The notes under the pieces were generated by a model. It saw nothing but the letters and a program-made list of their open reading frames with translations, did not search any database and was not told where the DNA came from. From assembly GCA_964576935.1 (NCBI GenBank), contig CAZNXD010000001.1:1-40616 (forward strand): a DNA stretch of 40,616 nucleotides, given 5' to 3'. The stretch is from an uncultured Pirellulales bacterium (GTDB taxonomy: Bacteria; Planctomycetota; Phycisphaerae; Sedimentisphaerales; Anaerobacaceae). Position numbers and translations under genes: made by a program. This document shows positions 7,524 to 39,473 of this stretch, piece by piece (position 1 is the stretch's first letter; each line of letters opens with the position of its first letter).

Positions 7524-8498
7524 CTAGGAAGCGGTAGCGTCTGCCCGGATTCCGTATAGCCTACCTACGCTCCGGGGGTCAATGGTGGCTAGACCTAACG
7601 GCCAGTCAACCATAGTCCGGTATACAGGCTTGGACTCCAGAAGTCCCATGTCCTCGACTTCGAGCGGGTACTCCTGTATGCCCCAGGTCATGTCACCTAT
7701 GCCGAATTTAATGGCGTAGATGCTGGTCTCGTAGGAACCGCCTCCATCAGACTCGGTGTTGGTGATTATCTCCGTGGTCTGGTCGGCCTTGACTCCGATG
7801 TCAATTAGTCTCGCTCCCTGGTACACATCAATAGTCCTGTCGAACATGTCCTTAGTCTGGTCGAGCAGTTTCTCTCTGCGTAGGAGTGAGCGAAGGGCTA
7901 GGAGCATCTTCTTGTTCATGAGTAGATAATCTGGATTATGCCCCTTGATGGCGTAGATGAGCTGGTCGAGCTTGTCGAGGAAGGAGTGTCGAGCAGCTTC
8001 GGTGCGAAGAATACCATAGTCAGTAGTATCGGCCAAGTCAATCAGCTGGTCAGTAAACCCTGCATCGTAGACATCATCTACCCGCTTGTCCAGGCCTTTG
8101 AATTCCTCCGGGTCTGATGTAGGATTACCATTAATCATCTTGTCGTTGAACTTGTAGACCATAGCCTTCAGCATCATGTTCTGCTGAATAGCTCTGGCAT
8201 CGGCAACGGTGTTCTTGGCCCTGGCGATGGCTTTGTCAGTGTCGATGTAGCCACCGGCAAGGGAGATGTTCTCCACTGCGTGCTCGAAGGCTCCGGTGGA
8301 TTCGCTGTAGCCCTCGTTGATTTTGCGGAAGCCAACGCTAGGCAGGCTGGAAATCTTCACAATGGAGGTGGAGAGCGCACCGAGGGTTTCCCAGGGGATA
8401 ATCTCCATAAGGTTAGATTCCATTATGAAAGTATCAATGACTGACTTACGCAGCGGGTCAGTTTCGATTTTACTTAATTCTGCTAAGTTCCAGGCCAT
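7524..8498 (-). CDS. Major capsid protein (HK97-fold type inferred)
   Basis: 324 aa, strong RBS AAGGAGG, directly after a coiled-coil scaffold gene, with the size and position typical of capsid genes. The assignment rests on synteny and general sequence character. Confidence 0.7.
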   Translation of the reverse strand: MAWNLAELSKIETDPLRKSVIDTFIMESNLMEIIPWETLGALSTSIVKISSLPSVGFRKINEGYSESTGAFEHAVENISLAGGYIDTDKAIARAKNTVADARAIQQNMMLKAMVYKFNDKMINGNPTSDPEEFKGLDKRVDDVYDAGFTDQLIDLADTTDYGILRTEAARHSFLDKLDQLIYAIKGHNPDYLLMNKKMLLALRSLLRREKLLDQTKDMFDRTIDVYQGARLIDIGVKADQTTEIITNTESDGGGSYETSIYAIKFGIGDMTWGIQEYPLEVEDMGLLESKPVYRTMVDWPLGLATIDPRSVGRLYGIRADATAS

Positions 8499-9215: not shown

Positions 9216-12200
9216 CTAGTCAATAACTCGCCCTGTCTGGGAGCTTACTTGGCGGAATAGCTTCTCTGCCTGAGGGGTCTTCAAGGAGGTAACTCGGCCC
9301 CAGTAGAAGAGCCAAGCATCTAGGTGAGGGTTCTTGTACCGGAGTGCTTCCCGAGTCTGGGAGACGTCTGAGCGGAAGCTGGAGATTAGCTTATCCCCAG
9401 TCTTACCTGATGCTATCTCCTTTATAGCAGCTTGTCTGTCTAATTTCTGCTGTGAACTCTCGAGGAATAAGAACTCCTTAATTATTGCCTGCTCATCCTC
9501 TGGGTAGGACTGGAGTGTAGCATCCCAAATGTCGTAGTATTTGCGGAAGTAATTTCCGTAGACATCGTGCCAGACTTCCATCATGGGGGCTGTGTTGCGA
9601 GTTATGTAGTCGCTCCACTTGCCCTTATCCTCATCTGGTATAGCCGCCTCAATCATCTCACGGTTTGCCCAGAACTTATCCCAGTCATATACTCGCTCAC
9701 CAGAGCCTGGGTCAACAGTCTCCTCTAGCTCTATGGAGAAATACATGGACATAAGCTCGTTGTATGGGGACTGGACTGGCATAGTTGTACCATATTTCAT
9801 ATAGTACTCAGTTCTGTTCTCCAATAGCATGAGGGGATTGGCTTTCATCTTCTCATCAATATAAGTCCTCCGCTCAGAATATAGGGATTTGACTCTGGAC
9901 AGGAATGTGTCTGGGGTAAGTCTACCACGCTCAGACCCGGTCAAAAAGTCCTGTTGCAACTCTAGTATTGTTTCTTTCTGCTGCTCTGAGTAAACTCGAA
10001 CATCAGCCCAGTCTAATTCTATCTTATTGAGAATCTCTTGCTGTAAGGAGGGGAGGACAGGATTGATGCTGCCACTATACTTGAACAGCTCTAGTTCCTG
10101 TAGGGCTGCTGATTCCCACGGCTCTAGTCCACCAAGCATATCCCAGAGCTTATAATTGTGCTGGCGAGCATATTTCTGCTGCTCTGCCGAAATGCCCCAG
10201 GTGTCGGCTATGAATTGCTCGGAAGCCTTGTATATAGCGTAGGAGTCATCGGACTTCATACGCATCATACCAGTCTGTTCGAAGAGGGCACTGTGGACTG
10301 CTACGGAACGTCTAGCCTCTGTCCACATCTGCTCCTCCTCCAGGGTGAGTTCCTGACCAGCTCTCATCTTGGCGAAGATAAGGCTACCATCGCCGCCTAA
10401 GTCATCTACACGGCGAGCGGCTAAGTATAGGCGGAAGTTCTCAGGGAATATCTTCTCTGATATGAAGGATACTATCTCGTTATCGGGGTAGGCAGCTATA
10501 AGTGCGTTGAGTGGGGTAGAGGCTGCGGAGGGTAGAATACCTCCAAGTGTACCCTGGCCAGAACCCCCGAACTGGGCTAGGGCTGCTCCGTACACTACAT
10601 TGGGATAGAAGCCGTAGCGACTGATTAAGTCCATAAGTTCAACTACACCGCCGAAGCCCTCGAGCTGGTCATAGTATTCGGGGTAGTCCTTGCGCATTAG
10701 ACGAGTAGACCAAGTGCCGAAGACTGTACCTCGGAGCGGATTAATGTCTATACTAGTGCTGGGAATGTGGACATAGCCATAGTCGGTGTTGTCTTCCCAT
10801 CTGCCCCAGGCTGTGAGAGTACCAGGCCGGCGGAAGAATGTTCGAGGGAGCCAGAACCAACGCTGGGACTCATATGTCCAGAACGGGTAGATGGACTTCA
10901 TGGTAGCGTCTACGATACTGGCATTGGTGTAGTCTGCGTACTCCTTGTAATACCACTTGTGGGACTCGTCTAGGGACTGCTGGCGGATGGTGTCGTAGTC
11001 GGTAAAGCCAGTCTTAGCTACGGTAGGGCCTACCTTGACTGGGGCAGTCATAGGCTTGCGCATGTACCCAGCTAGGACACTGGACTTGATGATAAGTTCA
11101 GACTCACCGACTGCACCAATGGAAACTACATCATCGACTTTGATGAGGATGTTGTCTATATCTACCCTACCAGCACGCTCAGAAATTACTTTATCCATAG
11201 CAGCAGCCTCAGCCACATCTATATCAGCTTTTGAATATCCTCCTGTTAGCTTACTCAAAAAGTCTTCCTTGTATAAATCAAGATTCTTCAATTCAGTGTC
11301 TGAAAATTGTCCTTGCCAAGTGTCCTCAAAGTCCACAGCAGTTTTCCTACTAGAAGTTACATTAACAAATTCTCTATCCAACGACCTCTTCCCTGCTTGT
11401 CCTGTACCTCTATATATCCTAATATACCCAGACGGATACTTTTCCCTAAGTAAGGCTCTGACCTTGGCTAGATATTCTGGGGATTCTGAGGCTAACCTAC
11501 CTATCCCCTGTAAGGCTCTATTATCCGAAACTTGGAACCAAGTGTCTGTGAGTGTCTTCAATGTGAGGTCTTGCCCTGTTGCATCCTTGAAGAATGGAGC
11601 CTCGTTCAGCTTAATATCTATTATTATTTTCTCAGATAACTTAACATCCTCTGCTGCTGAGATAAGTTCCTTACGAATCTTTTCCAGATAGGCGGGGTCG
11701 TCTACCAGCATATCAGCTTTCTCTACTCCAACAAGTTCAGATATTTCCTTTTCCTTCCCTGTAGGTACACGCTGACCAAGGCCAACATCATAGTCAGGTA
11801 CTAGCTGAGTAACTTTCCTCTTCTCATACATTACAGAATCCGCTGCCTTCACTGTCTCGTCTATGTAATTGTCTACAGCAGTCTTCTGCTCTCTAGGGAA
11901 GAGCTTCGCATTGTACAGTTCATGAAAGTCCTTCGTCATGCTCTCAATCTGCATCTGGCGAGTTCGGAACCAGCTGGAGGACTTGGGGTCTACGAGGAGG
12001 CTATTGGTAATCTGGTCGTATACGGACTCTACAGCTTCTCTGGTGAAGCCAACATCCTGGCCTTCCCGAGCCATACCTATGACGTACTCTACGAAGAAAT
12101 CCTTATCCCCCTCTACCAGCAAATTATCCATCAGCAATTTGCTAACATCATCGCCCCTACCACCGATTAGTCTGGCTACGTCTGCAGGGGCCAAAGGGCG

Positions 12201-15200
12201 ATTGCGAACTACTATGGAAGGCCGGGGAGTGAGAGCCACACCAGCTGCTCGGTTGATATCGTCTACAGCCTGGACTAGGCGGGAGTTGAGTGTAGCTATT
12301 TTCTTGTTCATACCATTCCAAAAGTTTTCTTCATGCGCATAGAAGTCGTCCCAGAAGTGCGGATTGCGAAGGTCTTTCTGGGTGGCAGCGGCAAAGTGTG
12401 ACTGACGATATGCTATGTCGCGGGAGCGGGCTGCGCCCATCTCCTGGCGTATAGTTGTAGTGAGGTCAAGGTAACGCTGGGTAGCAGACTTGTATACAGC
12501 GGTTTGGCCGATTTCTGTAGCTGCTACTTTCTCCACCACTCTATCTATGTCTCCAGCTGCATCGTCTAGGAAAGTATGTATCCGGTCAAACTCAAGGTCG
12601 AAGTGTTCTATTCTTTGCTCTATCTTCAGCCCCCTACTCTTCGCCGTTGCTCTCCCCATAATCTGATTAGGGAGTGCTCCATATGTCTGAGTCATCTTGT
12701 GGAGGTTCACAATTACTTCCGCAAGGTCATCGGGACTGGTAACTTCTAGTTCTGTCAATATATCTGCCAACTGTCGGAACTGCGCTCTAGCCTTCTCCGG
12801 GCCTTTGAGGAAGTCATCTAATTCGGCTTGCATTACTGAACCCTTCATGAAACTATCAATATTCTCAGGACTGCGCAATAGCTCCCGGTAATTCTGGAAG
12901 ACCAGGCTGCGGGATGTAGGGGAGACTTCGGGGTAGCGCATTAGAATATCATCCACCTCTACTCGATTAATCCTGTTACGAGTGAATCGGCTCTTGAGAT
13001 GACTGATAAGCTCAGTATTGTCTAGATTCAACTGGCCTGTTAGCTTAGCATTACGAACATCATTAGCTAACGCTCGTCTTACCCACTTGGGAGCGTTGTC
13101 TAATTCTGCAGGTAGATGCTTAGGGCCAGCTTGCAGCAATGCCTTATATGTGTCGCCACCAGCAGCAGCCAAGAGCTGTCTGTACTTGCCGAGGACAAAG
13201 TTTCTGCGCACATCCTGGCCTACACCACCAAATAGCTCTACCATAGTAGTATATGCTGCTTTGCTAAAACGAACAGGTGTTACTTTACCCCTTGTTGCTA
13301 AATATGTAGGAACACTCAAAGGTGAGAGGGAGGCAGTGAGTATCCAGTTAGCCCGCTGTGGGTCGCCCGTTTCTCTCAGCGGGCCTATCATTTCACTCAT
13401 ACCTGCTCGGCGAAGTTCAGGGTCTCCTAGCAATCCCATAGTGCCTATGTCCCACTGTTCGAGGGAAGCTCTGCCTGGCTTAACACCACCAAGGAAACTA
13501 CGGAACATATCTTCGAAGGTATTCATAGGGCCATACAGACCAAAGGTGAGATATGACTCGGCTGCTGGTCTAATAAGCATCCGGTCTAACTGCTTGAACC
13601 AAGGTCGGACTAGGCGGGAGTCTACATGATATGCGAGGGACATGAATCTACCAGATTTGCTGGCATATGTAGCTAATGCGCTCTCCCCCAACTTTGTATA
13701 GACCTTAAGCATTTTCCTACCATATGCTCGCATTACAGCATTGGCGGAGTCTTGTACGGCGAACTCTGCTGCGTTTTCTATAATATTATTAGCCTTGTTG
13801 GAAAGGTACCTGCCTATCATGGCAGTAGCATCGCCAGTAGTCTCGCCTAAATAAGTAACACCGAGCTTGGCTAGTAACATGTCTGTAGCTTCCACTCCCG
13901 TTATCTCCCGCTGAAAGAACCGCTCGAAGATTGTGTCTATGTCGAAGAGGGTGTCTATATTAACGCTGGCTGGCTCTATAGTATGCGCCCCTAAAGCTCT
14001 GACACGAGTAATGAGACTATTGACTTCTCGCTCATCTATGGGAGCATGGGCCAGCATTTCAACTGCGGCCTTGGCTATGTCGTCCTCGGCTCTGGGGTTC
14101 TCTACCCAGTGGGCTACTGCCGACTGTGCAGCCTCATACATGTCCTTTGGCTTGAGGAAGGACAGAGGAACCTTGCCTCGCTTGGTGTGGTTCTCGAAGA
14201 ATCGGTCTAGGACAGCCTGGGACTCCCTAGTAAGCTTTGACGCTCGCTGCACTACGGTCTTCGGGATAACATGCCCAGTCAGGTACTTGAGAGCATCAAA
14301 CGGCAAGTCCATAACTTCAGAGGCACTAGCAAAAGCTCCAGCTGCGGAACCTAATGTTCTAGAAGCAAACGACCCAGCTCTAGCCGAACCGGCTCCCCAC
14401 CTAAGAGCCACACCTGCCAGAGGAATCCAGGTCATGGGGTCTACAATTCCCTCCATGACCAGGTATTTAAGGGTAAAGTCAAAGACAGGCGGGCCAGGTG
14501 CATCCCACTGTTCCCAGGCATACACGAGAACTTCTCTATCAGAAGCTTCTGGATTAGTTCGCTTGAATTCTTCCTTAGCTCTACGAATGTCTGGAATCAT
14601 CCCGTATACCCAGCCAGCTGCTGGCATACTAACATGCTCGAAATACATGCTCAATACTTCGAGGGTATGGAGGGCTGGTTGGAGAGCGATGGACTTCATT
14701 AATTCTGCTCTTGTCTGCTCTGGGAACTTAATCCCGTTTGCCCTTATCTCATCAAGAAGGCTCTTGTGATTCTTAGCCTCAGCAATTAACTGTTCTGTAG
14801 TAATGGCCAGCTGTTGGTCTACGTCCTCGTCACTCCAGCCCTTGTCCTTCAAATGTGCGTTCATCTCTTCCTCAGTAAGGGCAGAGGCTGGAATCTGTGG
14901 TGCTCTTAGTGCAGACAATATTTCCTGCCTAGACAGTTGACTAATGGTTACGGGCTTTGCAGTTGTCTGCTCTGGAGGGGCTTCTAATGGGGGATATTCT
15001 AGTCCAAAGACATTATCCTGTACCTCCCCATTCTCATCAATTTGAGGAGAAGTGAATTGCTTATCTCTTGCTGCTATGAGTGAGCCTATGTCCATACGAA
15101 GTTGCTGGAACTCCGCTTCGTCTAAGTCAGGTGGTATGCTAGTAAAAGCAAGTGCTTCGTCAGTACTATTGACTGAGCCAGAGGACACTAGGGCTGGTAT

Positions 15201-15542
15201 GTAACTGTACAGTTCATCGTAGAAAGCCAAGTGCAAGATACTCTCAAGTTCTACCTGAGCAATATCTTCGGTCTGCTGGATATATTCCTTAGTTCCAGCT
15301 TGGTATGCTTCTATAAGAGGAGCAGAGGAGGGATGGAAGGAAGTAGGAAGCCGCTCATACCATTTCTTCCTCTCCGGGAACTTAGGCTGTACTTGTGGCT
15401 GGGTCTGCATGTCCTTAGCATCAGGCCATTGGGGAGGTACAGGTGTAGTACGAAGACGAAGCTGGAAAGCAGCCTCTTCTCTCTTCTTTCCCCACTCTGT
15501 TAGTTGCTTCTGGAACCCTTGTCCAAATGCTATATCAGGCAT
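9216..15542 (-). CDS. Giant head-module protein (2108 aa) with an embedded ADP-ribosyltransferase-like segment; probable packaged or ejected protein
   Basis: Uninterrupted 6.3-kb ORF with GAAGGAG RBS, located between the portal and scaffold genes. Confidence 0.85.
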   Translation of the reverse strand: MPDIAFGQGFQKQLTEWGKKREEAAFQLRLRTTPVPPQWPDAKDMQTQPQVQPKFPERKKWYERLPTSFHPSSAPLIEAYQAGTKEYIQQTEDIAQVELESILHLAFYDELYSYIPALVSSGSVNSTDEALAFTSIPPDLDEAEFQQLRMDIGSLIAARDKQFTSPQIDENGEVQDNVFGLEYPPLEAPPEQTTAKPVTISQLSRQEILSALRAPQIPASALTEEEMNAHLKDKGWSDEDVDQQLAITTEQLIAEAKNHKSLLDEIRANGIKFPEQTRAELMKSIALQPALHTLEVLSMYFEHVSMPAAGWVYGMIPDIRRAKEEFKRTNPEASDREVLVYAWEQWDAPGPPVFDFTLKYLVMEGIVDPMTWIPLAGVALRWGAGSARAGSFASRTLGSAAGAFASASEVMDLPFDALKYLTGHVIPKTVVQRASKLTRESQAVLDRFFENHTKRGKVPLSFLKPKDMYEAAQSAVAHWVENPRAEDDIAKAAVEMLAHAPIDEREVNSLITRVRALGAHTIEPASVNIDTLFDIDTIFERFFQREITGVEATDMLLAKLGVTYLGETTGDATAMIGRYLSNKANNIIENAAEFAVQDSANAVMRAYGRKMLKVYTKLGESALATYASKSGRFMSLAYHVDSRLVRPWFKQLDRMLIRPAAESYLTFGLYGPMNTFEDMFRSFLGGVKPGRASLEQWDIGTMGLLGDPELRRAGMSEMIGPLRETGDPQRANWILTASLSPLSVPTYLATRGKVTPVRFSKAAYTTMVELFGGVGQDVRRNFVLGKYRQLLAAAGGDTYKALLQAGPKHLPAELDNAPKWVRRALANDVRNAKLTGQLNLDNTELISHLKSRFTRNRINRVEVDDILMRYPEVSPTSRSLVFQNYRELLRSPENIDSFMKGSVMQAELDDFLKGPEKARAQFRQLADILTELEVTSPDDLAEVIVNLHKMTQTYGALPNQIMGRATAKSRGLKIEQRIEHFDLEFDRIHTFLDDAAGDIDRVVEKVAATEIGQTAVYKSATQRYLDLTTTIRQEMGAARSRDIAYRQSHFAAATQKDLRNPHFWDDFYAHEENFWNGMNKKIATLNSRLVQAVDDINRAAGVALTPRPSIVVRNRPLAPADVARLIGGRGDDVSKLLMDNLLVEGDKDFFVEYVIGMAREGQDVGFTREAVESVYDQITNSLLVDPKSSSWFRTRQMQIESMTKDFHELYNAKLFPREQKTAVDNYIDETVKAADSVMYEKRKVTQLVPDYDVGLGQRVPTGKEKEISELVGVEKADMLVDDPAYLEKIRKELISAAEDVKLSEKIIIDIKLNEAPFFKDATGQDLTLKTLTDTWFQVSDNRALQGIGRLASESPEYLAKVRALLREKYPSGYIRIYRGTGQAGKRSLDREFVNVTSSRKTAVDFEDTWQGQFSDTELKNLDLYKEDFLSKLTGGYSKADIDVAEAAAMDKVISERAGRVDIDNILIKVDDVVSIGAVGESELIIKSSVLAGYMRKPMTAPVKVGPTVAKTGFTDYDTIRQQSLDESHKWYYKEYADYTNASIVDATMKSIYPFWTYESQRWFWLPRTFFRRPGTLTAWGRWEDNTDYGYVHIPSTSIDINPLRGTVFGTWSTRLMRKDYPEYYDQLEGFGGVVELMDLISRYGFYPNVVYGAALAQFGGSGQGTLGGILPSAASTPLNALIAAYPDNEIVSFISEKIFPENFRLYLAARRVDDLGGDGSLIFAKMRAGQELTLEEEQMWTEARRSVAVHSALFEQTGMMRMKSDDSYAIYKASEQFIADTWGISAEQQKYARQHNYKLWDMLGGLEPWESAALQELELFKYSGSINPVLPSLQQEILNKIELDWADVRVYSEQQKETILELQQDFLTGSERGRLTPDTFLSRVKSLYSERRTYIDEKMKANPLMLLENRTEYYMKYGTTMPVQSPYNELMSMYFSIELEETVDPGSGERVYDWDKFWANREMIEAAIPDEDKGKWSDYITRNTAPMMEVWHDVYGNYFRKYYDIWDATLQSYPEDEQAIIKEFLFLESSQQKLDRQAAIKEIASGKTGDKLISSFRSDVSQTREALRYKNPHLDAWLFYWGRVTSLKTPQAEKLFRQVSSQTGRVID
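11040..11480 (-). other. ADP-ribosyltransferase-like domain (approximate bounds, aa ~1355-1500 of the giant protein)
   Basis: YIRIYR(1378)G, then NVTS(1397)S(1398)RKTAVDF, then AVGE(1480)SE(1482)LIIKSS. This is the Arg / S-x-S / E-x-E order of the R-S-E ART class. Confidence 0.55.
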
Positions 15543-17250: not shown

Positions 17251-18858
17251 TTATCCCCAGCCATCTTTCCATCCCTTTGCCCCTATAAGTCCTCGTTCTA
17301 CTGGTACGGAACTCCGGCAAACTATGGCTATACCAAGACTATCATGGTAGTCGTCTGCACCTATGGAAGTAGGAATGATGGTGCTACCGGATTTTATTTC
17401 CTTTATATTCCTACACTGCTCAATGATGCGAATATCGTGACATTCGATAACTGGTAGGAGCCGGGCCACTTCATTGCACATATACTTCTTCGTACTCCGG
17501 TTAGTCTGCCAGCCTACCTTCTTCCCAACCAGTCCAGTATCCGGGTCTGTTCTATAGTACAGGTCAGGGTAATCACTAATATAACCTACGAATCCTAATG
17601 CGTCCTCTGTAGCTATAGTTGCTCCATTATAGTATCTAGCCAAGTCCTTAGACTTCTGTGCCATATCTGGCTGGTCATATAGACCGGCAAGGGTGGCTAC
17701 ATGGCGCATAAGGACATCACCAGCGGCAACCCAGACAGTGGCTACAGACTTCGACTTCTTCCCCTCTCCGGGGTCTATGGCGACTAGGTACTTCTGACCT
17801 TCCTGCGGATGCTCCCATATGTCAGCGAAGTAGGCGTGGGAAGGAGCTTCATAACAGTCTCTGGCCATGTCGTTAATCCGCTCATGGTCATACCACATAT
17901 CTCCAGCAGCCTGGAAACAGGTTACATCGTCCTCTGGGTATTCCTGACCGAATAGAAGAACATGCTCGCTGCTGCGGCGGAGACTGGCGAATTCTACTCG
18001 CTTGTATCTACGCCAACGAAGCTTGTTGTGGCCATCCTGCATGGATACGCCCATAGCCTCGAAGCGGAGTAATAGGGCTATCTCGTCATCAGACAAATTG
18101 GGAAGTATAGGCTCCTCGTCTCCTGGTAAAGCGTAGGGGCTGTATGGAAGAAGGCTGTACTCTGGATGCTGATACCAGGCATAAAAGTGAGCTTTGAATA
18201 TAGACTGGCCAATGTCTTTGCCTTCTTTGGCTGCCATATACAGTTCAAAGAAATCATTATCCTCCCCATTAGGTGTGCTTAATGCCCGAACCTTAGTATT
18301 CGGAAGGAGAGGTACACGTTGGAGTGCAGCAGCAAAAGCATCGGCTGCAGTACCTAATGGCCAGAAGCCTAACTCGTCTAAGAGCAAATTATGAATCGGC
18401 TCACCACGAGGCATGGAGAAAGACTTAGCACTGGCTATATAGAAACTGCTCTCACCATGCTTCTTCCCCTTGCTATCCCTAAACTCATAGGTCTTTTCAA
18501 ACGTAGACTTATGCTTGAGTTCGGGAATAGTATTATTCTCCTTATACAGATTATCATATATAGCCTGGGCTTTGCGTAGAAGACGGCCAGTAATAAACTC
18601 GTCATAACTGATAATGACAGAAGTTGTGCCAGGGATAGTAATGCAATCTAGTAGATAATCGCACATGAAGAGGGTGGTTGCGCCTACTTGGGAAGGCTTC
18701 ACATAGACATCCCTGGATGTGGAAGTATCATACATATCATTCTGGATTGGGTTGAAGATAAAGGGCACAAGTTGTCTGTCCTTACCCTCAACTCGAATGA
18801 CAGATTCGATAAGTCTACGCCGGTCTATTACTGGTACAGTTCGTTCTTCGACTACCAT
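17251..18858 (-). CDS. terL: Terminase large subunit
   Basis: Walker A-like KPSQVGATT and Walker B LLLDELGF, followed by an RNaseH-like nuclease half beginning YLVAIDPGEG. 535 aa. Confidence 0.85.
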   Translation of the reverse strand: MVVEERTVPVIDRRRLIESVIRVEGKDRQLVPFIFNPIQNDMYDTSTSRDVYVKPSQVGATTLFMCDYLLDCITIPGTTSVIISYDEFITGRLLRKAQAIYDNLYKENNTIPELKHKSTFEKTYEFRDSKGKKHGESSFYIASAKSFSMPRGEPIHNLLLDELGFWPLGTAADAFAAALQRVPLLPNTKVRALSTPNGEDNDFFELYMAAKEGKDIGQSIFKAHFYAWYQHPEYSLLPYSPYALPGDEEPILPNLSDDEIALLLRFEAMGVSMQDGHNKLRWRRYKRVEFASLRRSSEHVLLFGQEYPEDDVTCFQAAGDMWYDHERINDMARDCYEAPSHAYFADIWEHPQEGQKYLVAIDPGEGKKSKSVATVWVAAGDVLMRHVATLAGLYDQPDMAQKSKDLARYYNGATIATEDALGFVGYISDYPDLYYRTDPDTGLVGKKVGWQTNRSTKKYMCNEVARLLPVIECHDIRIIEQCRNIKEIKSGSTIIPTSIGADDYHDSLGIAIVCRSSVPVERGLIGAKGWKDGWG

Positions 18859-30053: not shown

Positions 30054-30908
30054 ATGTCCATAGACAGCGCAAAACAACTGCTAGCATGGAAGCCGCCTTA
30101 CCTTGGCAACCCCTTCATAGCAGACGGAATACTCCTGCCAGAAACTAGGATGATTATATTCGGGGAAGCGGGTAGCTGGAAATCCAACTTAGCCCTCCAC
30201 ACTATGTTCTCCATCTCCCAGGGTAAGGAATGGATGGGATATAAGACCCAACCAGCAGTTGTTCTCAAAGTCCAAGCTGAACTACCCAAATACATTGATA
30301 GAGAGCGGCTAGTTGTATATGGGGCATCAGCAGGACTACTGCCTGACAATATCTTTTTCAAGACTGTGGGAGATACTATTGGAGGGGATGAGCGAGTAAA
30401 GCTAGACACTACATTCGGTATGCAAGCCCTGGCCAAGTATATTGAAGAAGTACAGGCTCGCAATCCTAGTGCCCAACTCGTAGTGCTCCTAGACCCGCTC
30501 AAGGACGTTATGGCGGGGAAGATTACTGACGAGTATGATGTGCGCAAGTTCCAAGACAACCTTAACTCACTAATATCAAAGTACCACTTCGCAGTAATTA
30601 TCTTCCACCATAGTAGAAAGAGACAAGCAGCTGGTAATGGGGAAGGTTATCTGGATGGTGGAGGAGAGGAATCACTAGGAAGTATCCACTGGAAGAACTG
30701 GTGCGACACTATGCTCCGGTCTGTAATTATCAACCCCTACTCAGGTTCAGACATCATTGAATACAGATGGGAGAAGCACCGTAACGCTAGGAAGTACCTA
30801 AAGTCTTTCAAGGCGCAGTGGAGCCGGGGAACTCTCCTTCCAACTATACTAGTTGAGGAAGCTGTGGATGTAGAGGACATAAGCATACACGGATTCCAAG
30901 GAGACTAA
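30054..30908 (+). CDS. RecA-fold ATPase (RepA/DnaB C-terminal-like) with a non-canonical P-loop
   Basis: The P-loop reads GEAGSWKSN and Walker B reads QLVVLLDPL, followed by FHHSRK. This layout resembles RecA-superfamily replication ATPases. Confidence 0.7.
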   Translation: MSIDSAKQLLAWKPPYLGNPFIADGILLPETRMIIFGEAGSWKSNLALHTMFSISQGKEWMGYKTQPAVVLKVQAELPKYIDRERLVVYGASAGLLPDNIFFKTVGDTIGGDERVKLDTTFGMQALAKYIEEVQARNPSAQLVVLLDPLKDVMAGKITDEYDVRKFQDNLNSLISKYHFAVIIFHHSRKRQAAGNGEGYLDGGGEESLGSIHWKNWCDTMLRSVIINPYSGSDIIEYRWEKHRNARKYLKSFKAQWSRGTLLPTILVEEAVDVEDISIHGFQGD

Positions 30909-33478: not shown

Positions 33479-33700
33479 ATGAATAAGTGTCCATTAGGAG
33501 AAGCAATGACTAAGGAAATTCACTGGCTTGAGTATTGTAAAAGTTGTGGGCGGAATCATCGGATGAAGATGAGAGGTTGCCCCACCTGTAATGTGTATGA
33601 AACGCCTCAACCTGCATCTGATAAAGTGGCTGATACTTGTTTGGCGCACTATGAATGTGATGGGTGTGAGGCTTATAAAGAACACACAAATCCTTATTAG
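33479..33700 (+). CDS. Cys-rich zinc-binding protein, 73 aa
   Basis: CKSC...CPTC...C...CDGC patterns. Confidence 0.6.
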   Translation: MNKCPLGEAMTKEIHWLEYCKSCGRNHRMKMRGCPTCNVYETPQPASDKVADTCLAHYECDGCEAYKEHTNPY

Positions 33701-34875: not shown

Positions 34876-36480
34876 ATGATTAATCTTATATGGGGGAAGG
34901 AGGGCTCAGGGAAGTCTTCACTGGGGTTGACTTGGCCAAAGCCGCTGTTCCACATGGAACTTGACCTGGGAGGATTTGACAGGGCCTCGTGGAGGCTACC
35001 CAAAGATACAAGGATAAAGCGATGCGAGATTGGGGAGGACATTAAGGGTATCAATTGGGCAGACTGGGATATAGTTACCAAGCCGTATCCTATCCCTATG
35101 CAGCTGGAAAAGATGCTGGGCGCACAGACAGTCAAAGATGGGAACAAGGTGTCTATACGCTTTCCTAGGCGTGTTATTGGGTACAGGGAACTGTGGGAAG
35201 ATATTATCATGGACTATGTAACAGCCTGCCAGGTTTCTGGACTCAAGACTATAATGCCAGATTCCTTTACGCAACAGTGGAAAATCTGCCTGGCTCCAAG
35301 CACAAGGATACTCTACACAGACCTTACTTGGAGGGCGATAGGCGAGGCCAAAGTTGGGGACAAGCTCATAGGCTTTAGTGAATATATAGAGCCCACAGGA
35401 AGAAGACGTCTACGTGAATCTACCATAGAGGCAGTGAAGGAAAGGGTAAATTCGGCTTATAAAATACTGATGGACAATGGGGCATCTGTAATCGCTAGTA
35501 GAGAGCATCCTTGGCTTAAGGTAATGTCTGAGCGAATCTGGGACAGTCTGAGCCAAGCTTGGTTTCTCAAAGAGCAGTGGGTTATGACTGAATCTCTAAG
35601 AGTAGGAGATAGTCTTCGTTTTATGTGCAAACCTTGGGAGACAGATACATCATGGGAGGCAGGATACCTAGCAGGACTGTATGATGGGGAGGGCTGTGTA
35701 GATTCCCCGAAGGCACTAACACTATCCCAGAAATCAGACCCTGTAATTACATCACTAATTAGTGCTCTTGAGTCAAGAGGATTTGAGAGCAAAATGTACG
35801 ACAAGTCCAGCAAGGGTGGCTACACGATAAGAATACATAGTAAGGATGAGATACTTAGATTCCTAGGAAGTATAAGGCCATCAAGACTTTTACCAAGGGC
35901 TGCAGAAGTCTGGGGAGGTAGAACTGTCAATGGGGATAATCACCTTGCCACTATTGTTGGAATAGAGCCTGTTGAAACCACCGAACTTATAGACATTAAA
36001 ACAAGCACAGCTACATTCATAGCTGAGGGACTGTTCTCGCATAATTGTCATACGGCGCACCTGCAGGATAAGCAGGAGATTCAAATATCACAAGGTATGA
36101 AAGATACTGACAGTAAGTTCAGGGAGCGACTTACGCCTATGGAATTTCCTAATGATAAGATGAGGAGCTTTCTCTATACCTCAACAAGCTTCGGTAAGCA
36201 GCTGGTAATCACCCACTACCCTACGGATGTGTATGCTAATAAGGTTACGGATAAGGGGGTGGAGAGCTATGCTACAGGAGAGCTGACTCCAGAGGGCTTC
36301 AAACATACAAAGGAACTGGTGGATATAATTATCTGGACATACTCGGACAAGAACCAGCCAAGGGCAAAGATTGGGGATAAGTGCGGGCTTGCTGGTATGG
36401 GGATGTCTGCATGTGGACTGGAACTTCCCTATGCCTCCTATGAGGGGCTGATGGAACTGCAAGAAATATTGAGGGGGTAG
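34876..36480 (+). CDS. Sak4/AAA_24-like RecA-fold ATPase precursor interrupted by an intein (extein 281 aa)
   Basis: N-terminus LIWGKEGSGKSSLGLTWPKPLFHMELDLGG gives Walker A followed by the pkPlfid.E.G pattern. Walker B-like TIMPDS follows. The frame is continuous through the intein. Confidence 0.8.
   Translation: MINLIWGKEGSGKSSLGLTWPKPLFHMELDLGGFDRASWRLPKDTRIKRCEIGEDIKGINWADWDIVTKPYPIPMQLEKMLGAQTVKDGNKVSIRFPRRVIGYRELWEDIIMDYVTACQVSGLKTIMPDSFTQQWKICLAPSTRILYTDLTWRAIGEAKVGDKLIGFSEYIEPTGRRRLRESTIEAVKERVNSAYKILMDNGASVIASREHPWLKVMSERIWDSLSQAWFLKEQWVMTESLRVGDSLRFMCKPWETDTSWEAGYLAGLYDGEGCVDSPKALTLSQKSDPVITSLISALESRGFESKMYDKSSKGGYTIRIHSKDEILRFLGSIRPSRLLPRAAEVWGGRTVNGDNHLATIVGIEPVETTELIDIKTSTATFIAEGLFSHNCHTAHLQDKQEIQISQGMKDTDSKFRERLTPMEFPNDKMRSFLYTSTSFGKQLVITHYPTDVYANKVTDKGVESYATGELTPEGFKHTKELVDIIIWTYSDKNQPRAKIGDKCGLAGMGMSACGLELPYASYEGLMELQEILRG
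35287..36045 (+). mobile_element. Intein (253 aa) with a LAGLIDADG homing-endonuclease segment
   Basis: It begins CLAPSTRIL (Cys1). Block B-like ASREHPWL lies about 70 aa in. YLAGLYDGEGCV is the LAGLIDADG motif. It ends TFIAEGLFSHN, followed by the +1 Cys (codon 36046..36048). Confidence 0.85.
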
Positions 36481-36481
36481 G

Positions 36482-37042
36482 ATGATGGAAGCTAAAGACA
36501 CAGTGATAGAAGGTACTGATATAAGAATGTGGGTAGTGGGGACATTGATGAGTAGACGATATGGCACTGTGGAGAAACTTTCCACGGATGTTAGCGAGAA
36601 GTTGCGGGAACAAGCCGAGATATCCTTTAAGGCCGGTACAGAAGAAGCCTTTACTCGGTACAAAGAATCACCTGAATATAAACTGGATTTGATGAAAGCT
36701 AAGTCGGCGGGTATCAAGGAAGTGGTGGAGAGTCTGCGGGACTTGTGGACTGATGGGGCGATTACATTCTTAGATAGTGGCCCATTCAGAGGCAAGAAAC
36801 TGTGGGCTGTTCCTTATGAGTTATTTCAATCCAAATTAAAGGAGTGGGGAGTGAAGATGGAAAGTAGATACAGCGACAGCACCCCGGTACAATGTACTGC
36901 CTGTGGCTGGGAGGGGCAAGTCATGGACTGTATTCATACCTTCGAGCTAGTCTCTTATGGCGAGGATGTACATGCTATGGACTTATGCCCGGCCTGTAGA
37001 TGTGACAGTCTGAAGGAAATAGAGGAAGAAGAATGCTCTTAG
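36482..37042 (+). CDS. Hypothetical protein, 186 aa, with C-terminal zinc ribbon
   Basis: CTAC...CPACRC near the C-terminus. GAGGGGG RBS. Confidence 0.65.
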   Translation: MMEAKDTVIEGTDIRMWVVGTLMSRRYGTVEKLSTDVSEKLREQAEISFKAGTEEAFTRYKESPEYKLDLMKAKSAGIKEVVESLRDLWTDGAITFLDSGPFRGKKLWAVPYELFQSKLKEWGVKMESRYSDSTPVQCTACGWEGQVMDCIHTFELVSYGEDVHAMDLCPACRCDSLKEIEEEECS

Positions 37043-37854
37043 TAGATACGGCAGAACCAGAGGAGATAATCAATATGCTTCGTACCGTCACTACAGTAGA
37101 AGTCCTACCGCTCAACAATACGCAGCGGGCAGACTACTACTTTGGTGGGGAGGACGGAAGGACACGGCAATTTTGCAGGGTGCAGGCAGGAGAACTATTG
37201 GGCGGTATAGACAGCCAAGAGGACGAGCTGCGCCGCTACTATGAGTCTGCAGACGAGAATAACTTAATTATAGAGGGGCTGATAAGTGATGTTCCTCTAA
37301 CTCGCAAGGACAAGGGCATGGAGGCAGTAAGTGTGAGAATGGGGACTAGGCCAGCTACACTGTTTGCCTATAGGGTAGCACCGACTGGATTTATCTTTGG
37401 TGAACATGCGTTTAATGTAAGCTCTAGTCTGTACTATGCTTGGCTGTATCGACTGTACGATGCAGGGGTTCAAATATTCTGTACTGCGAACTACGTGGGG
37501 ACAGCGAAATGTCTGGCTGCAGTCTACCGAAATAGTCAACGCCCAGAAGAGGAGCACAATACGCTGAATCGCTACTTCATTCCTAGAATCAGTATGAGCG
37601 AGAAAGATGAGAATACGAGAAAGAGAGTATCAATACGGGAGCAAAACCCCTTCATTAGAAGCCTGATGGCACTTAGCCTAATTCACCATCTGGATATAGG
37701 GGAGAAGAAGGCTACAGTGCTGTACGAGGCTGGGTATAAGTCGCTGCTGGATATTGTCTACGCAAGTGAGAAGGAACTATGTGCAGTACCGGGGATAGGA
37801 AAGACTATTGCACAAGGGCTGCATAAGGCAATAGGGCTGGAAGGAGATATATAA
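37033..37854 (+). CDS. Helix-hairpin-helix DNA-binding protein with a possible ERCC4/XPF-like nuclease-fold N-domain
   Basis: The C-terminal LCAVPGIGKTIAQGL is a clear HhH (GIG) motif. The N-terminal LLVDTAEPEE...ADYYF...NLIIEGL resembles the ERCC4 layout, but the canonical ERK triad is not evident. Confidence 0.5.
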   Translation: MLLVDTAEPEEIINMLRTVTTVEVLPLNNTQRADYYFGGEDGRTRQFCRVQAGELLGGIDSQEDELRRYYESADENNLIIEGLISDVPLTRKDKGMEAVSVRMGTRPATLFAYRVAPTGFIFGEHAFNVSSSLYYAWLYRLYDAGVQIFCTANYVGTAKCLAAVYRNSQRPEEEHNTLNRYFIPRISMSEKDENTRKRVSIREQNPFIRSLMALSLIHHLDIGEKKATVLYEAGYKSLLDIVYASEKELCAVPGIGKTIAQGLHKAIGLEGDI

Positions 37855-38498: not shown

Positions 38499-38673
38499 GT
38501 TTCTCCTATGTGCAGGGACATGGCTATTGTCTGATGGTATCTATAGTTGGATACTATATCATAAGGCAATAAGCTATAATGGGGAGCACCAGAATTTCTG
38601 GAGAGACCACTGGATTAGATTAGTGAGGATAGTACTGGCCTGTGGAATAATAGGAGTAGGAGTAACTATATGA
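38476..38673 (+). CDS. Small membrane protein, 65 aa
   Basis: GAAGGAGG RBS and two hydrophobic segments. Confidence 0.55.
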   Translation: MLITMASKFLLCAGTWLLSDGIYSWILYHKAISYNGEHQNFWRDHWIRLVRIVLACGIIGVGVTI

Positions 38674-39473
38674 AAGAGTTTGCACCAGACTATAATCGAG
38701 ATGAGCAGGGGAGAGTATTGTTCCCTTCTGATACTAACTATCGTGCTAGTCTATTCCCAGCCCTAGACCCGACCACTCACGTAGCTAAGGCTAACCTGTG
38801 GATGGTGGAGGCACTAGTCAACTATGTGTCCGAACCGGGGGAGTCTATCCTCGACCCGTTTGCAGGGACAGGGACTATACTCTGCGGTATTCCGCTGGGG
38901 AGGGATGTTATCTGTATGGAACTGGAGGAGCCGTACCAGCGTATCATTGAGTCAAACATCCAGATGATGAAGATGGACTACCCGGATATAGACGACCATG
39001 CGCAGCTTATTCCGTGTGATAGTTTCAAGCTGCTGCCAATACCAGACTATTGCGACCATGCAGTATTCTCACCTCCTTATCCTATGGGCTTGAAGAAGAA
39101 GGGAACTATGGATAAGACTTCCCAAGACCTCGGCTATGCTAGTGCTACTGACTATAGTGCTAATCCTGACAACTTCACCAATCTCAATACGTTCCTGTAC
39201 CATCAGCGGATAGAGCTGTTCTATAAGAAGTGTTTGCAAACTATTCGACCTGGGGGGACTATGACTATTATCATTAAGGATAGGGTGGAGAAGGGGGAGC
39301 GAATGAACCAGCCGGACAGGACGGAAAGAGACTGTTTGAGATTGGGGTATGAACTAGTGGGGAGGAACAAGTGGTATGCTAGAGGGGGAGGATATACAGC
39401 AGTGAATAAGTTGAAGGGGCTAGAGACTGTGGATGAGGAAGACCTTATAACTTTACGGAGGCCAACACAATGA
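38670..39473 (+). CDS. DNA methyltransferase (N6-adenine or N4-cytosine class)
   Basis: The AdoMet motif I is ILDPFAGTGT, and the catalytic motif IV is VFSPPYP ([DNS]PP[YF]). Confidence 0.85.
   Translation: MKEFAPDYNRDEQGRVLFPSDTNYRASLFPALDPTTHVAKANLWMVEALVNYVSEPGESILDPFAGTGTILCGIPLGRDVICMELEEPYQRIIESNIQMMKMDYPDIDDHAQLIPCDSFKLLPIPDYCDHAVFSPPYPMGLKKKGTMDKTSQDLGYASATDYSANPDNFTNLNTFLYHQRIELFYKKCLQTIRPGGTMTIIIKDRVEKGERMNQPDRTERDCLRLGYELVGRNKWYARGGGYTAVNKLKGLETVDEEDLITLRRPTQ

What the first reader, a model, noticed from the sequence alone, without database searches (positions are those of the whole stretch)
35287..36045. Intein with only one visible LAGLIDADG motif splitting a Sak4-like recombination ATPase
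CDS 34876..36480 starts like an AAA_24/Sak4 ATPase, with GKEGSGKSS followed by PKPLFHMELDLGG. After ...FTQQWKI, a 253-aa element begins with Cys (CLAPSTRIL). It carries a block B-like SREHPWL and one LAGLIDADG motif (YLAGLYDGEGCV). It ends ...TFIAEGLFSHN, directly before a Cys. Those are the hallmarks of a class 1 intein.

The insertion sits just after the Walker B-like TIMPDS, which is a conserved catalytic neighbourhood. The endonuclease part is short (about 90-100 aa), and I see only one LAGLIDADG motif. Intein endonucleases usually have two. It may therefore be a homodimeric or decaying nuclease.

Both the host gene class and the single-motif architecture deserve a closer look.
Basis: seen in the sequence. 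Interest (0 to 1): 0.65.

Follow-up and report, generated by a model that had tools for sequence, protein, structure and literature searches.

The report
Half-nuclease intein in a phage ATPase
A phage recombination-type ATPase gene is interrupted by a genuine self-splicing protein element (intein) from a very large family that carries only half of the usual LAGLIDADG DNA-cutting domain, so it probably has to pair up to cut DNA.

Summary
CDS 34876..36480 (534 aa) contains a 253-aa insert (35287..36045) that starts with Cys and ends His-Asn before a Cys. It sits eight residues after the Walker B Asp. About 100 intein-less homologues (255-330 aa, AAA_24 / Sak4-like) align across the site with one clean 253-residue gap, and the +1 Cys is native and conserved.

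An AlphaFold model (pLDDT 94.8) shows a Hint splicing fold holding exactly one alpha-beta-beta-alpha-beta-beta-alpha LAGLIDADG half-domain. The single motif is therefore real, not a hidden second copy.

It is not a decaying one-off. A profile of this intein finds over 2,000 cluster representatives (E<=1e-30) with the same ~250-aa architecture in phage polymerases, terminases, helicases and RecA. The catalytic Glu, a Gln and an Arg are as invariant as the splicing residues.

Known members include the cluster C1 mycobacteriophage terminase-like intein, which has been shown to splice. A second diverged Sak4-like gene carries the same intein at the same site.

Best reading: a functional, mobile class 1 intein whose nuclease works as a homodimer. 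Dimerisation is inferred only. The target site shows no palindromy, and no family member's nuclease has been tested. It is a new member of a known kind; the family-wide half-nuclease architecture seems undescribed.

The parts
34876..36480 (+). Precursor CDS (534 aa + stop): N-extein, intein, C-extein in one frame
   Evidence: The ATG lies 4 nt after the stop of the upstream ORF, and the next ORF starts at 36482, so this is a tightly packed operon.
34876..35286 (+). N-extein (aa 1-137) of an AAA_24 / Sak4-like P-loop ATPase. Walker A GKEGSGKS at 34894..34917; Walker B TIMPDS at 35248..35265 (D129 invariant).
   Evidence: Alignments A1 and A3. Pfam AAA_24 in 28/37 homologues, PHROG 124 in 16/37. 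Coordinates checked.
35287..36045 (+). Class 1 intein, 253 aa (Cys1 ... His252-Asn253)
   Evidence: It appears as a clean 253-residue gap in 17 aligned intein-less homologues. Homologous inserts with C1/HN/+1 S, T or C occur in other proteins. AF2 pLDDT 94.8. Foldseek hits are all inteins.
35287..35622 (+). N-terminal Hint (splicing) subdomain, intein aa 1-112. Block A is CLAPSTRIL; block B SREHPWL lies at 35497..35517 (H74 invariant).
   Evidence: Beta-strands in the AF2 model. A PDB profile matches gp41-1, DnaB and PI-SceI splicing blocks. Conservation.
35647..35931 (+). Single LAGLIDADG half-domain (intein aa 121-215), alpha-beta-beta-alpha-beta-beta-alpha. Motif YLAGLYDGEGCV at 35665..35700. 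Putative active-site residues: E135 (35689..35691), Q148 (35728..35730), R200 (35884..35886).
   Evidence: Pfam LAGLIDADG_3 E 3.6e-10. DSSP elements H123-135, E136-139, E143-148, H151-163, E168-171, E179-183, H186-196. A profile matches PI-PfuI, I-AniI and I-MsoI half-domains. Invariance.
35932..36045 (+). C-terminal Hint subdomain (intein aa 216-253): block F ELIDIKTSTATFIAEG, block G LFSHN
   Evidence: AF2 strands 220-252. Matches to gp41-1 and Mxe GyrA C-terminal blocks. H252 168/168 and N253 167/168.
36046..36480 (+). C-extein (144 aa + stop), beginning with the +1 nucleophile Cys (36046..36048) in the conserved block CHTxxLQ(D/E)KQEIQ
   Evidence: C391 and H392 are >=90% conserved in the intein-less homologues of the first alignment; H stays >=90% in the larger one, where C falls below 90%. 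L396, Q397, Q400, E401 and Q403 are invariant.

Best explanation
The 253-aa insert is a functional class 1 intein in the replication/recombination module of a ~40-kb uncultured salt-marsh phage. Each step below is marked as shown here or inferred.

Splicing (chemistry inferred; residues shown). The gene is translated as a 534-aa precursor. The intein then excises itself in four steps. Cys1 makes the N-S acyl shift. The native Cys+1 performs the trans-thioesterification. Asn253, helped by His252 and the block B His74, cyclises. An S-N shift then joins the 137-aa and 144-aa exteins into a 281-aa AAA_24/Sak4-like ATPase. While present, the intein sits eight residues after the Walker B Asp, in the most conserved block of the protein. 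The precursor should therefore be inactive (inferred).

The nuclease module. The intein belongs to a very large family of ~250-aa inteins. Their mobility module is one LAGLIDADG half-domain rather than the usual two (shown). In this family the helix-packing glycine face is conserved (G126, G130, G134), and so are the catalytic-type residues (E135, Q148, R200). I therefore infer that two intein molecules pair through their LAGLIDADG helices, as I-CreI subunits do. The pair would form a two-active-site endonuclease that cuts intein-less alleles at ...TGGAAAATC|TGTCAT... and triggers homing by recombinational repair.

Sub-confidences:
- genuine intein of this family: ~0.97
- splicing-competent: ~0.85
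- half-domain is an active nuclease: ~0.6
- it acts as a homodimer: ~0.5
For: Anatomy and boundaries:
- They match.
- The insertion is precise relative to 17 aligned intein-less homologues. There are 97 intein-less homologues in total, plus 58 IMG/VR loci, all without the insert.
- The +1 Cys is native and conserved.

Fold:
- AF2 with a 37-sequence alignment gives pLDDT 94.8 and pTM 0.91.
- The model shows Hint strands at 1-112 and 220-252 and one alpha-beta-beta-alpha-beta-beta-alpha unit at 121-215.
- The top Foldseek PDB hits are all inteins (7qsu, 7qst, 1dq3, 1dfa, 1am2) with TMq <= 0.51. No solved intein therefore has this one-half-domain build.
- In the viral library, three proteins share the whole architecture (TMq 0.74-0.89), including a 1007-aa mycobacteriophage protein.

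Family:
- A profile search over 1.84 billion representatives gives 4,922 hits, 2,063 of them at E <= 1e-30.
- The listed proteins hold 167 full-length copies. All start with Cys and 166 end HN. The +1 residue is S in 86, C in 68 and T in 13. Length is 237-296 aa, median 252.
- Invariance across 168 copies: C1 168, H74 168, E135 167 (plus one D), Q148 167, R200 167, H252 168, N253 167. G126, G130 and G134 are 90-97% conserved.

Mobility signature:
- P0118 is a Sak4-like homologue on a syntenic 40-kb phage contig. It carries the same intein at the same site.
- The two inteins are 65% identical, against 57% for the exteins.
- Each extein has closer intein-less relatives (77% and 68% identity).
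- The family occupies many hosts: DNA pol A, TerL, UDG, UvrD, RecA, Mu gp36 and DUF7236.

Experimental support:
- The cluster C1 mycobacteriophage terminase-like intein Pham3880-g splices in a reporter (PMC5050341).
- I infer it is a family member from Alice gp239, a C1 phage 'terminase' whose 269-aa insert has the same architecture.

Presence in nature: the intein-containing allele occurs at >=99% identity in contigs from four salt-marsh runs.
Against:
- The fused extein junction shows no pseudo-palindromic symmetry above chance. This holds for the window, for P0118, for an intein-less allele and for two other family members (best 4-6 of 9 symmetric pairs; pooled P ~0.33). The test has low power, and natural I-CreI-type sites are only partly symmetric.
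- No family member's nuclease has been assayed. Kelley et al. tested cleavage only for two-motif TerL inteins.
- The conservation figures come from the 150 best profile hits and so lean towards well-conserved copies.
- No intein-less allele of this phage was seen in reads. Depth was only 2-5x and only contigs were available, so recent homing is not shown.
Confidence: 0.6

Rival explanations
1. The intein splices, but the half-domain works as a monomer. It could be a site-specific nickase, since one active site gives one strand cut and nick-induced repair could still drive homing. Or it could be a DNA-binding module with no cleavage, so the element spreads only by ordinary phage recombination.
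For: There is only one catalytic acidic residue per chain. Five homing sites show no palindromic symmetry. The Hint domain of this allele carries an extra beta-hairpin (intein aa ~78-97) that could add asymmetric DNA contacts.
Against: An isolated LAGLIDADG half-domain normally needs a partner helix to complete its core; this is established knowledge from I-CreI, I-DmoI and PI-SceI structures. The small-residue face G126/G130/G134 is 90-97% conserved, as expected for helix-helix packing. A pure binding module would not need an invariant Glu, Gln and Arg.
Confidence: 0.25
2. The nuclease half-domain is a decaying remnant of a two-motif endonuclease. The intein would then be a fixed, immobile passenger that only needs to splice.
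For: Inteins commonly lose nuclease function after fixation (the homing cycle; established knowledge). The window's motif is solitary, and Pfam detects it only once. No intein-less allele of this phage was seen in four runs.
Against: The same half-domain is present in 167 of 167 full-length copies among the best hits, with length tightly centred on 252 aa. The motif residues are as invariant as the splicing residues. Per-site variability of the half-domain (mean entropy 2.43 bits) is close to that of the N-terminal Hint subdomain (2.33 bits). The family sits at many different insertion sites and often twice in one protein, which points to ongoing invasion.
Confidence: 0.1
3. The 253-aa segment is not an intein. 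It would be a normal lineage-specific domain, or a non-splicing Hint/BIL-type insert, of this ATPase.
For: Generic intein profiles are weak on it. Pfam Intein_splicing gives no hit, and TIGR01445 scores 17.7 bits against a cut-off of 24.5.
Against: About 100 homologues lack it precisely. C1, the block B His, HN and the +1 Cys are all present. The same element occurs in unrelated proteins, always bounded by C...HN followed by S, T or C. The fold matches solved inteins. A family member splices experimentally (PMC5050341).
Confidence: 0.02

Closest known systems
Pham3880-g intein of cluster C1 mycobacteriophages (terminase-like protein; e.g. ScottMcG gp245, Alice gp239), Kelley et al. 2016, PMC5050341
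   Same: Same intein family. Alice gp239 carries a 269-aa insert, CLAPDTRVL...GYLAGFMDGEGH...LRFLGTIRPVRLL...AEGLLTHN|S. It is 37% identical to the window's intein over its full length, and the matching BFVD model has TMq 0.89. It is a class 1 intein with a single LAGLIDADG motif, and it was shown to splice in a reporter.
   Different: The host protein differs (terminase-like rather than AAA_24/Sak4-like), as do the insertion site and the +1 residue (Ser rather than Cys). The paper does not comment on the single half-domain and did not test this intein's nuclease. That ScottMcG gp245 and Alice gp239 are the same phamily is inferred from the annotation and cluster, not tested here.
Canonical intein-encoded LAGLIDADG endonucleases (PI-SceI, PI-PfuI, TliVMA/PhoVMA inteins)
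   Same: A Hint splicing domain with a LAGLIDADG nuclease nested between blocks B and F. These are the best structural matches (Foldseek E 1e-9 to 5e-7). The motif aligns to the PI-PfuI and PI-SceI dodecapeptide blocks.
   Different: Those enzymes have two LAGLIDADG half-domains in one chain, act as monomers on asymmetric sites and are 360-540 aa long. This intein has one half-domain in 253 aa, and TMq is only ~0.5.
Homodimeric single-motif LAGLIDADG enzymes (I-CreI, I-MsoI, I-CeuI)
   Same: One LAGLIDADG helix with one alpha-beta-beta-alpha-beta-beta-alpha unit per chain and one catalytic acidic residue. A profile of the family hits I-MsoI.
   Different: Those enzymes are free-standing, intron-encoded proteins with pseudo-palindromic targets. 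Here the unit is nested in a Hint domain, and no target symmetry was found.
Artificial bifunctional intein: I-CreI grafted into the Mxe GyrA mini-intein (Fitzsimons Hall et al. 2002, J Mol Biol 323:173; listed as ref. B106 in PMC3943268)
   Same: A single-motif LAGLIDADG unit nested in a mini-intein. From my own knowledge of that paper (not read here), the chimera both spliced and cut DNA. That would show the architecture proposed here to be physically workable.
   Different: It was engineered, not natural, and is unrelated in sequence.
Intein of Rv2578c-family radical SAM proteins (NCBIfam NF038136)
   Same: Positions 76-334 of the model match the whole window intein (E 1.3e-16). The family is therefore also curated as an intein in bacterial chromosomes.
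   Different: The host is a cellular radical SAM enzyme rather than a phage ATPase. The match covers the intein part only (66 bits against a whole-protein cut-off of 700).
Sak4 / AAA_24 (PF13479; PHROG 124) phage single-strand annealing ATPases
   Same: The extein has Walker A and Walker B motifs in a RecA-like core of ~280 aa. It lies in a phage replication module next to an AAA_25 helicase-like gene, an HhH protein and a methylase. Among homologues, 28/37 hit AAA_24 and 16/37 hit PHROG 124.
   Different: The window's own extein is below the Pfam gathering score (21.7 vs 27 bits). It has no PDB relative by sequence profile. No biochemical activity is known for this subfamily.

Membership tests
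Class 1 intein | N-terminal nucleophile (Cys/Ser) at position 1 | tested here: met
   Cys1 at 35287..35289; Cys in 168/168 family copies.
Class 1 intein | Block B (T/S)xxH motif | tested here: met
   S71-R-E-H74 (SREHPWL, 35497..35517). H74 is present in 168/168 copies; position 71 is S or T in 163/168.
Class 1 intein | C-terminal His-Asn followed by Cys/Ser/Thr at +1 | tested here: met
   ...LFSHN|C at 36031..36048. HN in 166/167 copies; +1 is S in 86, C in 68 and T in 13.
Class 1 intein | Hint fold | tested here: met
   AF2 pLDDT 94.8. Foldseek probability is 1.00 to PI-SceI, PI-PfuI, Mxe GyrA, DnaB, RecA and gp41-1 inteins and to hedgehog Hint.
Class 1 intein | Precise in-frame insertion relative to intein-less homologues, at a conserved site | tested here: met
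   A single 253-column gap between W-x-I and C-H-T in 17 aligned homologues. All 97 protein hits and all 58 IMG/VR loci lack it.
Class 1 intein | Not class 2 or 3 (which lack the Cys1/Ser1 nucleophile; class 3 has the WCT triplet) | tested here: met
   Cys1 is present, and the sequence has no internal block F Cys in a W-C-T arrangement.
Class 1 intein | Protein splicing demonstrated | not testable with these tools
   Evidence exists only by relation: the family member Pham3880-g splices in the MIG reporter (PMC5050341).
LAGLIDADG homing endonuclease | LAGLIDADG helix with an acidic residue at motif position 8 | tested here: met
   L128-A-G-L-Y-D-G-E135-G136. E135 is E in 167/168 copies and D in one. 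Pfam LAGLIDADG_3 scores 40.4 bits against a cut-off of 22.5.
LAGLIDADG homing endonuclease | Alpha-beta-beta-alpha-beta-beta-alpha core fold | tested here: met
   DSSP of the AF2 model: H123-135, E136-139, E143-148, H151-163, E168-171, E179-183, H186-196.
LAGLIDADG homing endonuclease | Two half-domains forming the active enzyme (two motifs in one chain, or a homodimer) | tested here: inconclusive
   Only one half-domain per chain: 253 aa in total, and family copies of 237-296 aa leave no room for a second. Homodimerisation could not be modelled. The conserved glycine face is consistent with it.
LAGLIDADG homing endonuclease | Site-specific cleavage of the element-less allele; pseudo-palindromic target if homodimeric | tested here: inconclusive
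   Cleavage is not testable here. The palindromy test on five junctions was not above chance (P ~0.33), and its power is low.
AAA_24 / Sak4-like ATPase (host protein) | P-loop Walker A and Walker B motifs | tested here: met
   GKEGSGKS (K13 is invariant in the 18-sequence alignment and >=90% in the 37-sequence one) and TIMPDS (D129 invariant).
AAA_24 / Sak4-like ATPase (host protein) | Match to Pfam PF13479 above the gathering score | tested here: not met
   The spliced extein scores 21.7 bits against a cut-off of 27. Membership is supported transitively: 28/37 close homologues match at E <= 1e-3 (best 1.4e-13), and 16/37 match PHROG 124.
AAA_24 / Sak4-like ATPase (host protein) | ssDNA annealing / recombination mediator activity | not testable with these tools
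   Only the family annotation and the gene neighbourhood (AAA_25, HhH protein, methylase) bear on this.

The most novel reading that the evidence does not exclude
This intein and its thousands of relatives would be natural homodimeric intein endonucleases. Each chain carries one Hint domain and one LAGLIDADG half-domain, and DNA cutting requires two excised inteins (or precursors) to pair. I could not find this quaternary arrangement described for any natural intein. It would place single-motif LAGLIDADG enzymes inside inteins. It would also bear on the order of events in LAGLIDADG evolution, from homodimer to fused monomer, and on how nucleases first colonised mini-inteins.
Probability: 0.3. 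Interest if true: 0.65.

Novelty: new member of a known kind. Interest (0 to 1): 0.45.

Why it matters
For this window the result is mostly good annotation. The '534-aa protein' is really a 281-aa Sak4-like ATPase plus a 253-aa intein. AAA_24/Sak4-like proteins can be added to the list of intein hosts; I found only two carriers among roughly 150 homologues.

The wider point concerns the family. This is a very abundant group of phage and actinobacterial inteins. It is poorly detected by the generic Pfam and TIGRFAM intein models, and it keeps only half of a LAGLIDADG nuclease under strong constraint.

If these half-nucleases cut as dimers, two things follow. They are a natural counterpart of the engineered I-CreI-in-intein chimera. 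They also offer compact (~250 aa) splicing-plus-cutting modules for protein engineering, and a test case for how homing endonucleases and inteins first came together.

Tried and rejected
- DNA search of the region against 50,697 phage records found no match.
- Sequence-profile search of the extein family against the PDB found no hit, so the insertion site could not be mapped on a solved ATPase.
- A first AF2 run with a 3-sequence alignment gave an unusable model (pLDDT 57). It was replaced by the 37-sequence run.
- The word-indexed protein search with the intein found only two relatives and missed P0118. The exhaustive HMM search was needed.
- The palindromy tests of the homing site were negative.
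- An IMG/VR scan with the full precursor alignment used intein-only patterns and returned one distant locus. It was repeated with the extein alignment.
- I looked for a second copy of this intein family in the window in all six frames and found none.
- I looked for an adjacent free-standing nuclease gene that could serve the intein ('collaborative homing'). None of the neighbouring ORFs that were scanned was recognised as one.
- I looked for an intein-less allele of this phage in four salt-marsh runs. No joint skipped 35287..36045, but depth was 2-5x and only contigs were available.
- Seven literature searches and targeted reading found no description of a natural single-LAGLIDADG intein or of an intein in Sak4. 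Subscription journals are not covered.
- A non-intein domain and a class 3 intein were both considered and rejected; see the rival explanations and the membership test.
Full report
**1. The observation**

ORF 34876..36480 (+) encodes 534 aa.
- Walker A GKEGSGKS at 34894..34917;
- PKPLFHMELDLGG following it;
- the Walker B-like TIMPDS at 35248..35265;
- the N-extein ending ...FTQQWKI at 35286;
- a 253-aa insert at 35287..36045 that starts CLAPSTRIL;
- SREHPWL (35497..35517) and a single YLAGLYDGEGCV (35665..35700) within it;
- the insert ending ...TFIAEGLFSHN, directly before Cys (36046..36048).

G+C content is 45.1% in the insert, 47.8% in the exteins and 46.8% in the window. Composition therefore gives no sign of a recent foreign origin.

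**2. It is an insertion**

The conceptually spliced 281-aa protein finds 97 homologues of 208-330 aa (39-68% identity, mostly full coverage). None carries an insert. Seventeen of them align to the precursor with a single clean gap of exactly 253 residues, between the conserved W-x-I and the conserved C-H-T.

The +1 Cys is >=90% conserved in those 17 intein-less homologues, so the intein uses a native residue. The site lies eight residues after the invariant Walker B Asp (D129), inside the most conserved block of the family: DSxTQxWxI | CHTxxLQ(D/E)KQEIQ. A scan of IMG/VR found 58 further relatives on ~38-44-kb viral contigs, all without the insert.

**3. The host protein**

The window's own extein is below the Pfam AAA_24 threshold (21.7 vs 27 bits), and its PHROG 124 ('Sak4-like ssDNA annealing protein') match is only a Walker A hit. 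Its homologues give stronger support: 28 of 37 hit AAA_24 (best E 1.4e-13) and 16 of 37 hit PHROG 124 (best E 2.5e-11). No solved structure is detectable by sequence profile.

The neighbourhood is a phage replication module:
- an AAA_25 helicase-like gene (30054..30908);
- an HhH-domain protein (37033..37854);
- an N6/N4 methylase (38670..39473).

A structural arm lies on the other strand, with a major head protein at 7524..8498 and a large terminase at 17251..18858. 'Sak4-like AAA_24 ATPase' is thus a reasonable but transitive label. Its biochemical role is inferred.

**4. The insert is an intein with one LAGLIDADG half-domain**

Domain searches gave these results:
- Pfam finds one LAGLIDADG_3 domain (intein aa 123-196, E 3.6e-10) and nothing else.
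- NCBIfam's generic intein N-terminal model is sub-threshold.
- The intein part of NF038136 (intein-containing Rv2578c-family radical SAM protein) matches the whole insert at E 1.3e-16.

With a 37-sequence alignment, AlphaFold gives a confident model (pLDDT 94.8, pTM 0.91):
- beta-strands of a Hint domain at residues 1-112 and 220-252;
- between them, exactly one alpha-beta-beta-alpha-beta-beta-alpha unit (H123-135, two hairpins, H151-163, H186-196).

Foldseek against the PDB returns only inteins and Hint domains: TliVMA, PhoVMA, PI-PfuI, PI-SceI, Mxe GyrA, DnaB, RecA, gp41-1 and hedgehog. The best query-normalised TM-score is ~0.5. No solved intein therefore has this build.

A sequence profile of the family matches two kinds of PDB chain. 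It matches the splicing blocks of gp41-1, DnaB, Mxe GyrA and PI-SceI. It also matches single half-domains of PI-PfuI, I-AniI, I-MsoI and PI-SceI. So the single motif is real. There is no hidden or degenerate second half-domain, and there is no room for one.

**5. The architecture is a family trait, not decay**

Two relatives turned up first: one in a Mu gp36-like protein and one in a DUF7236 protein on a 115-kb contig. Both are bounded by C...HN|S or T.

A profile of the three inteins was then searched exhaustively against 1.84 billion cluster representatives. It gives 4,922 hits, with 3,182 at E <= 1e-10 and 2,063 at E <= 1e-30. The 150 listed proteins, together with the two first relatives, hold 167 full-length copies:
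- all start with Cys;
- 166 end HN;
- +1 is Ser in 86, Cys in 68 and Thr in 13;
- length is 237-296 aa, median 252.

Counting the window's copy gives 168. The nuclease-type residues are as invariant as the splicing residues:

| Residue | Copies (of 168) |
|---|---|
| C1 | 168 |
| H74 | 168 |
| E135 | 167 (plus 1 Asp) |
| Q148 | 167 |
| R200 | 167 |
| D133 | 162 |
| H252 | 168 |
| N253 | 167 |

One face of the LAGLIDADG helix is glycine-rich: G126, G130 and G134 are 90-97% conserved. Mean per-site entropy is 2.43 bits in the half-domain against 2.33 bits in the N-terminal Hint part.

One caveat applies. These are the best-scoring hits, so the conservation figures are somewhat inflated.

Hosts among 64 of these proteins were DNA polymerase A (21), large terminase (9), UDG (4), UvrD-type helicases (4), RecA (3) and single cases including AAA_24. 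Only 11 of 64 reach LAGLIDADG_3 and 4 of 64 reach Intein_splicing at E <= 1e-5. Standard annotation therefore under-detects the family.

**6. Known members**

A tblastn search of phage genomes finds the family in 180 records: 144 Mycobacterium, 17 Gordonia, 15 Ralstonia and a few others. The hits are mostly annotated simply 'terminase'.

Alice gp239 is a 1007-aa cluster C1 'terminase'. It contains a 269-aa copy with the same layout, and its BFVD counterpart superposes with TMq 0.89.

Kelley et al. 2016 (PMC5050341) catalogued 33 inteins in the C1 terminase-like Pham3880 protein and showed that the ScottMcG gp245 copy splices in a reporter. They tested nuclease activity only for two-motif TerL inteins.

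Family members are thus already on record as inteins. I found no paper that remarks on the single half-domain or describes a natural single-motif LAGLIDADG intein. I also found none reporting an intein in Sak4. The searchable library omits most subscription journals, so this is absence of evidence only. The engineered I-CreI-in-Mxe GyrA chimera (ref. B106 in PMC3943268) is the nearest published analogue of the architecture.

**7. Signs of mobility**

P0118 (516 aa) lies on a 40.3-kb contig with the same gene order: AAA_25, then the ATPase, an HhH protein, a methylase and DNA polymerase A. It is a diverged Sak4-like homologue with the same intein at the same site.

The two inteins are 65% identical while the exteins are 57% identical. 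Each extein has closer intein-less relatives (77% for P0118, 68% for the window). This sporadic, same-site distribution across diverged hosts is the classical signature of homing, or of repeated loss.

The window's phage occurs at >=99% identity in contigs from four salt-marsh metagenome runs, and one contig spans the N-junction with the intein present. No contig joins 35286 to 36046. At 2-5x depth with contigs only, this says little.

**8. Mechanism**

- Shown: the anatomy, the fold, the boundaries, the conservation and the family distribution.
- Inferred from established intein chemistry: the four-step class 1 splicing pathway, using C1, C+1, N253, H252 and H74.
- Inferred from position: the precursor ATPase is inactive until it is spliced.
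- Inferred from LAGLIDADG structural biology: a single half-domain cannot form the two-helix core or the paired active sites alone. The simplest working model is therefore a homodimer of two inteins.

Two things count against this model or leave it neutral. The fused junctions of five family members show no pseudo-palindromy above chance (pooled P ~0.33). I also could not model a dimer. A monomeric nickase or a binding-only module remains possible. A decaying remnant is unlikely given the invariance.

**9. Verdict**

This is a real, well-bounded class 1 intein at a new host site, in an AAA_24/Sak4-like ATPase with two carriers known. It belongs to a large family that is already partly catalogued. 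What remains interesting lies at the family level: a conserved half LAGLIDADG nuclease nested in an intein, whose mode of action is untested.

Noticed in passing
window 9216..15542 (-): A 2,108-aa ORF in the structural arm, between the major-head region and the portal/terminase region, has no Pfam hit at E <= 1e-3. It could be a giant virion or tail-associated protein of unknown type. It was not scanned against PHROGs.
   Followed up: partly
window 36482..37042 (+) and 33479..33700 (+): Two small ORFs flanking the ATPase region carry paired CxxC motifs (zinc-ribbon-like...CTACGW...CPACRC... and ...CKSCGRN...CPTCN...). The first has no PHROG or Pfam match; the second was not scanned. In run X4 a contig replaces 98 bases (36513..36610) inside the first ORF with 77 other letters, which indicates a population variant.
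   Followed up: no
window 35518..35580 (intein aa ~78-98): The window's intein and its P0118 allele carry a longer beta-hairpin (KVMSERIWDSLSQAWFLKEQ) where most family members have a gap. It extends the Hint domain and could be a DNA-contact element like the DNA-recognition region of PI-SceI. That idea is speculative.
   Followed up: no
proteins P0100, P0104, P0106, P0109, P0111, P0113-P0116, P0121, P0240: Many host proteins carry two full-length copies of this intein family at different sites, and some show 4-7 matched stretches. This points to a very invasive family. It also raises the question of whether different half-nuclease inteins in one protein could heterodimerise.
   Followed up: no
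L001 1408..4086 (contig of P0099, 115 kb): DNA polymerase III alpha is called as five or so short consecutive ORFs (192, 132, 158, 83 and 292 aa with DNA_pol3_alpha, finger and HHH_6 hits). The gene is either fragmented by frameshifts or assembly errors, or interrupted by intervening elements.
   Followed up: no
window 34876..36480; Pfam/NCBIfam results: Generic intein models barely see this family. Pfam Intein_splicing is absent on the window protein, and TIGR01445 scores 17.7 bits against a cut-off of 24.5. In GenBank phage records the carriers are annotated simply as 'terminase' or 'hypothetical protein'. Inteins of this family are probably widely un-annotated.
   Followed up: partly
window 37033..37854 (+) and L003 11974..12705: A conserved ~245-273-aa protein with a C-terminal helix-hairpin-helix domain (HHH_5 E 3.7e-9) lies a short way downstream of the Sak4-like gene in both intein-carrying phages: one ORF downstream in the window, two small ORFs downstream in L003. 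It may be a partner nuclease or DNA-binding factor of the recombination module.
   Followed up: no
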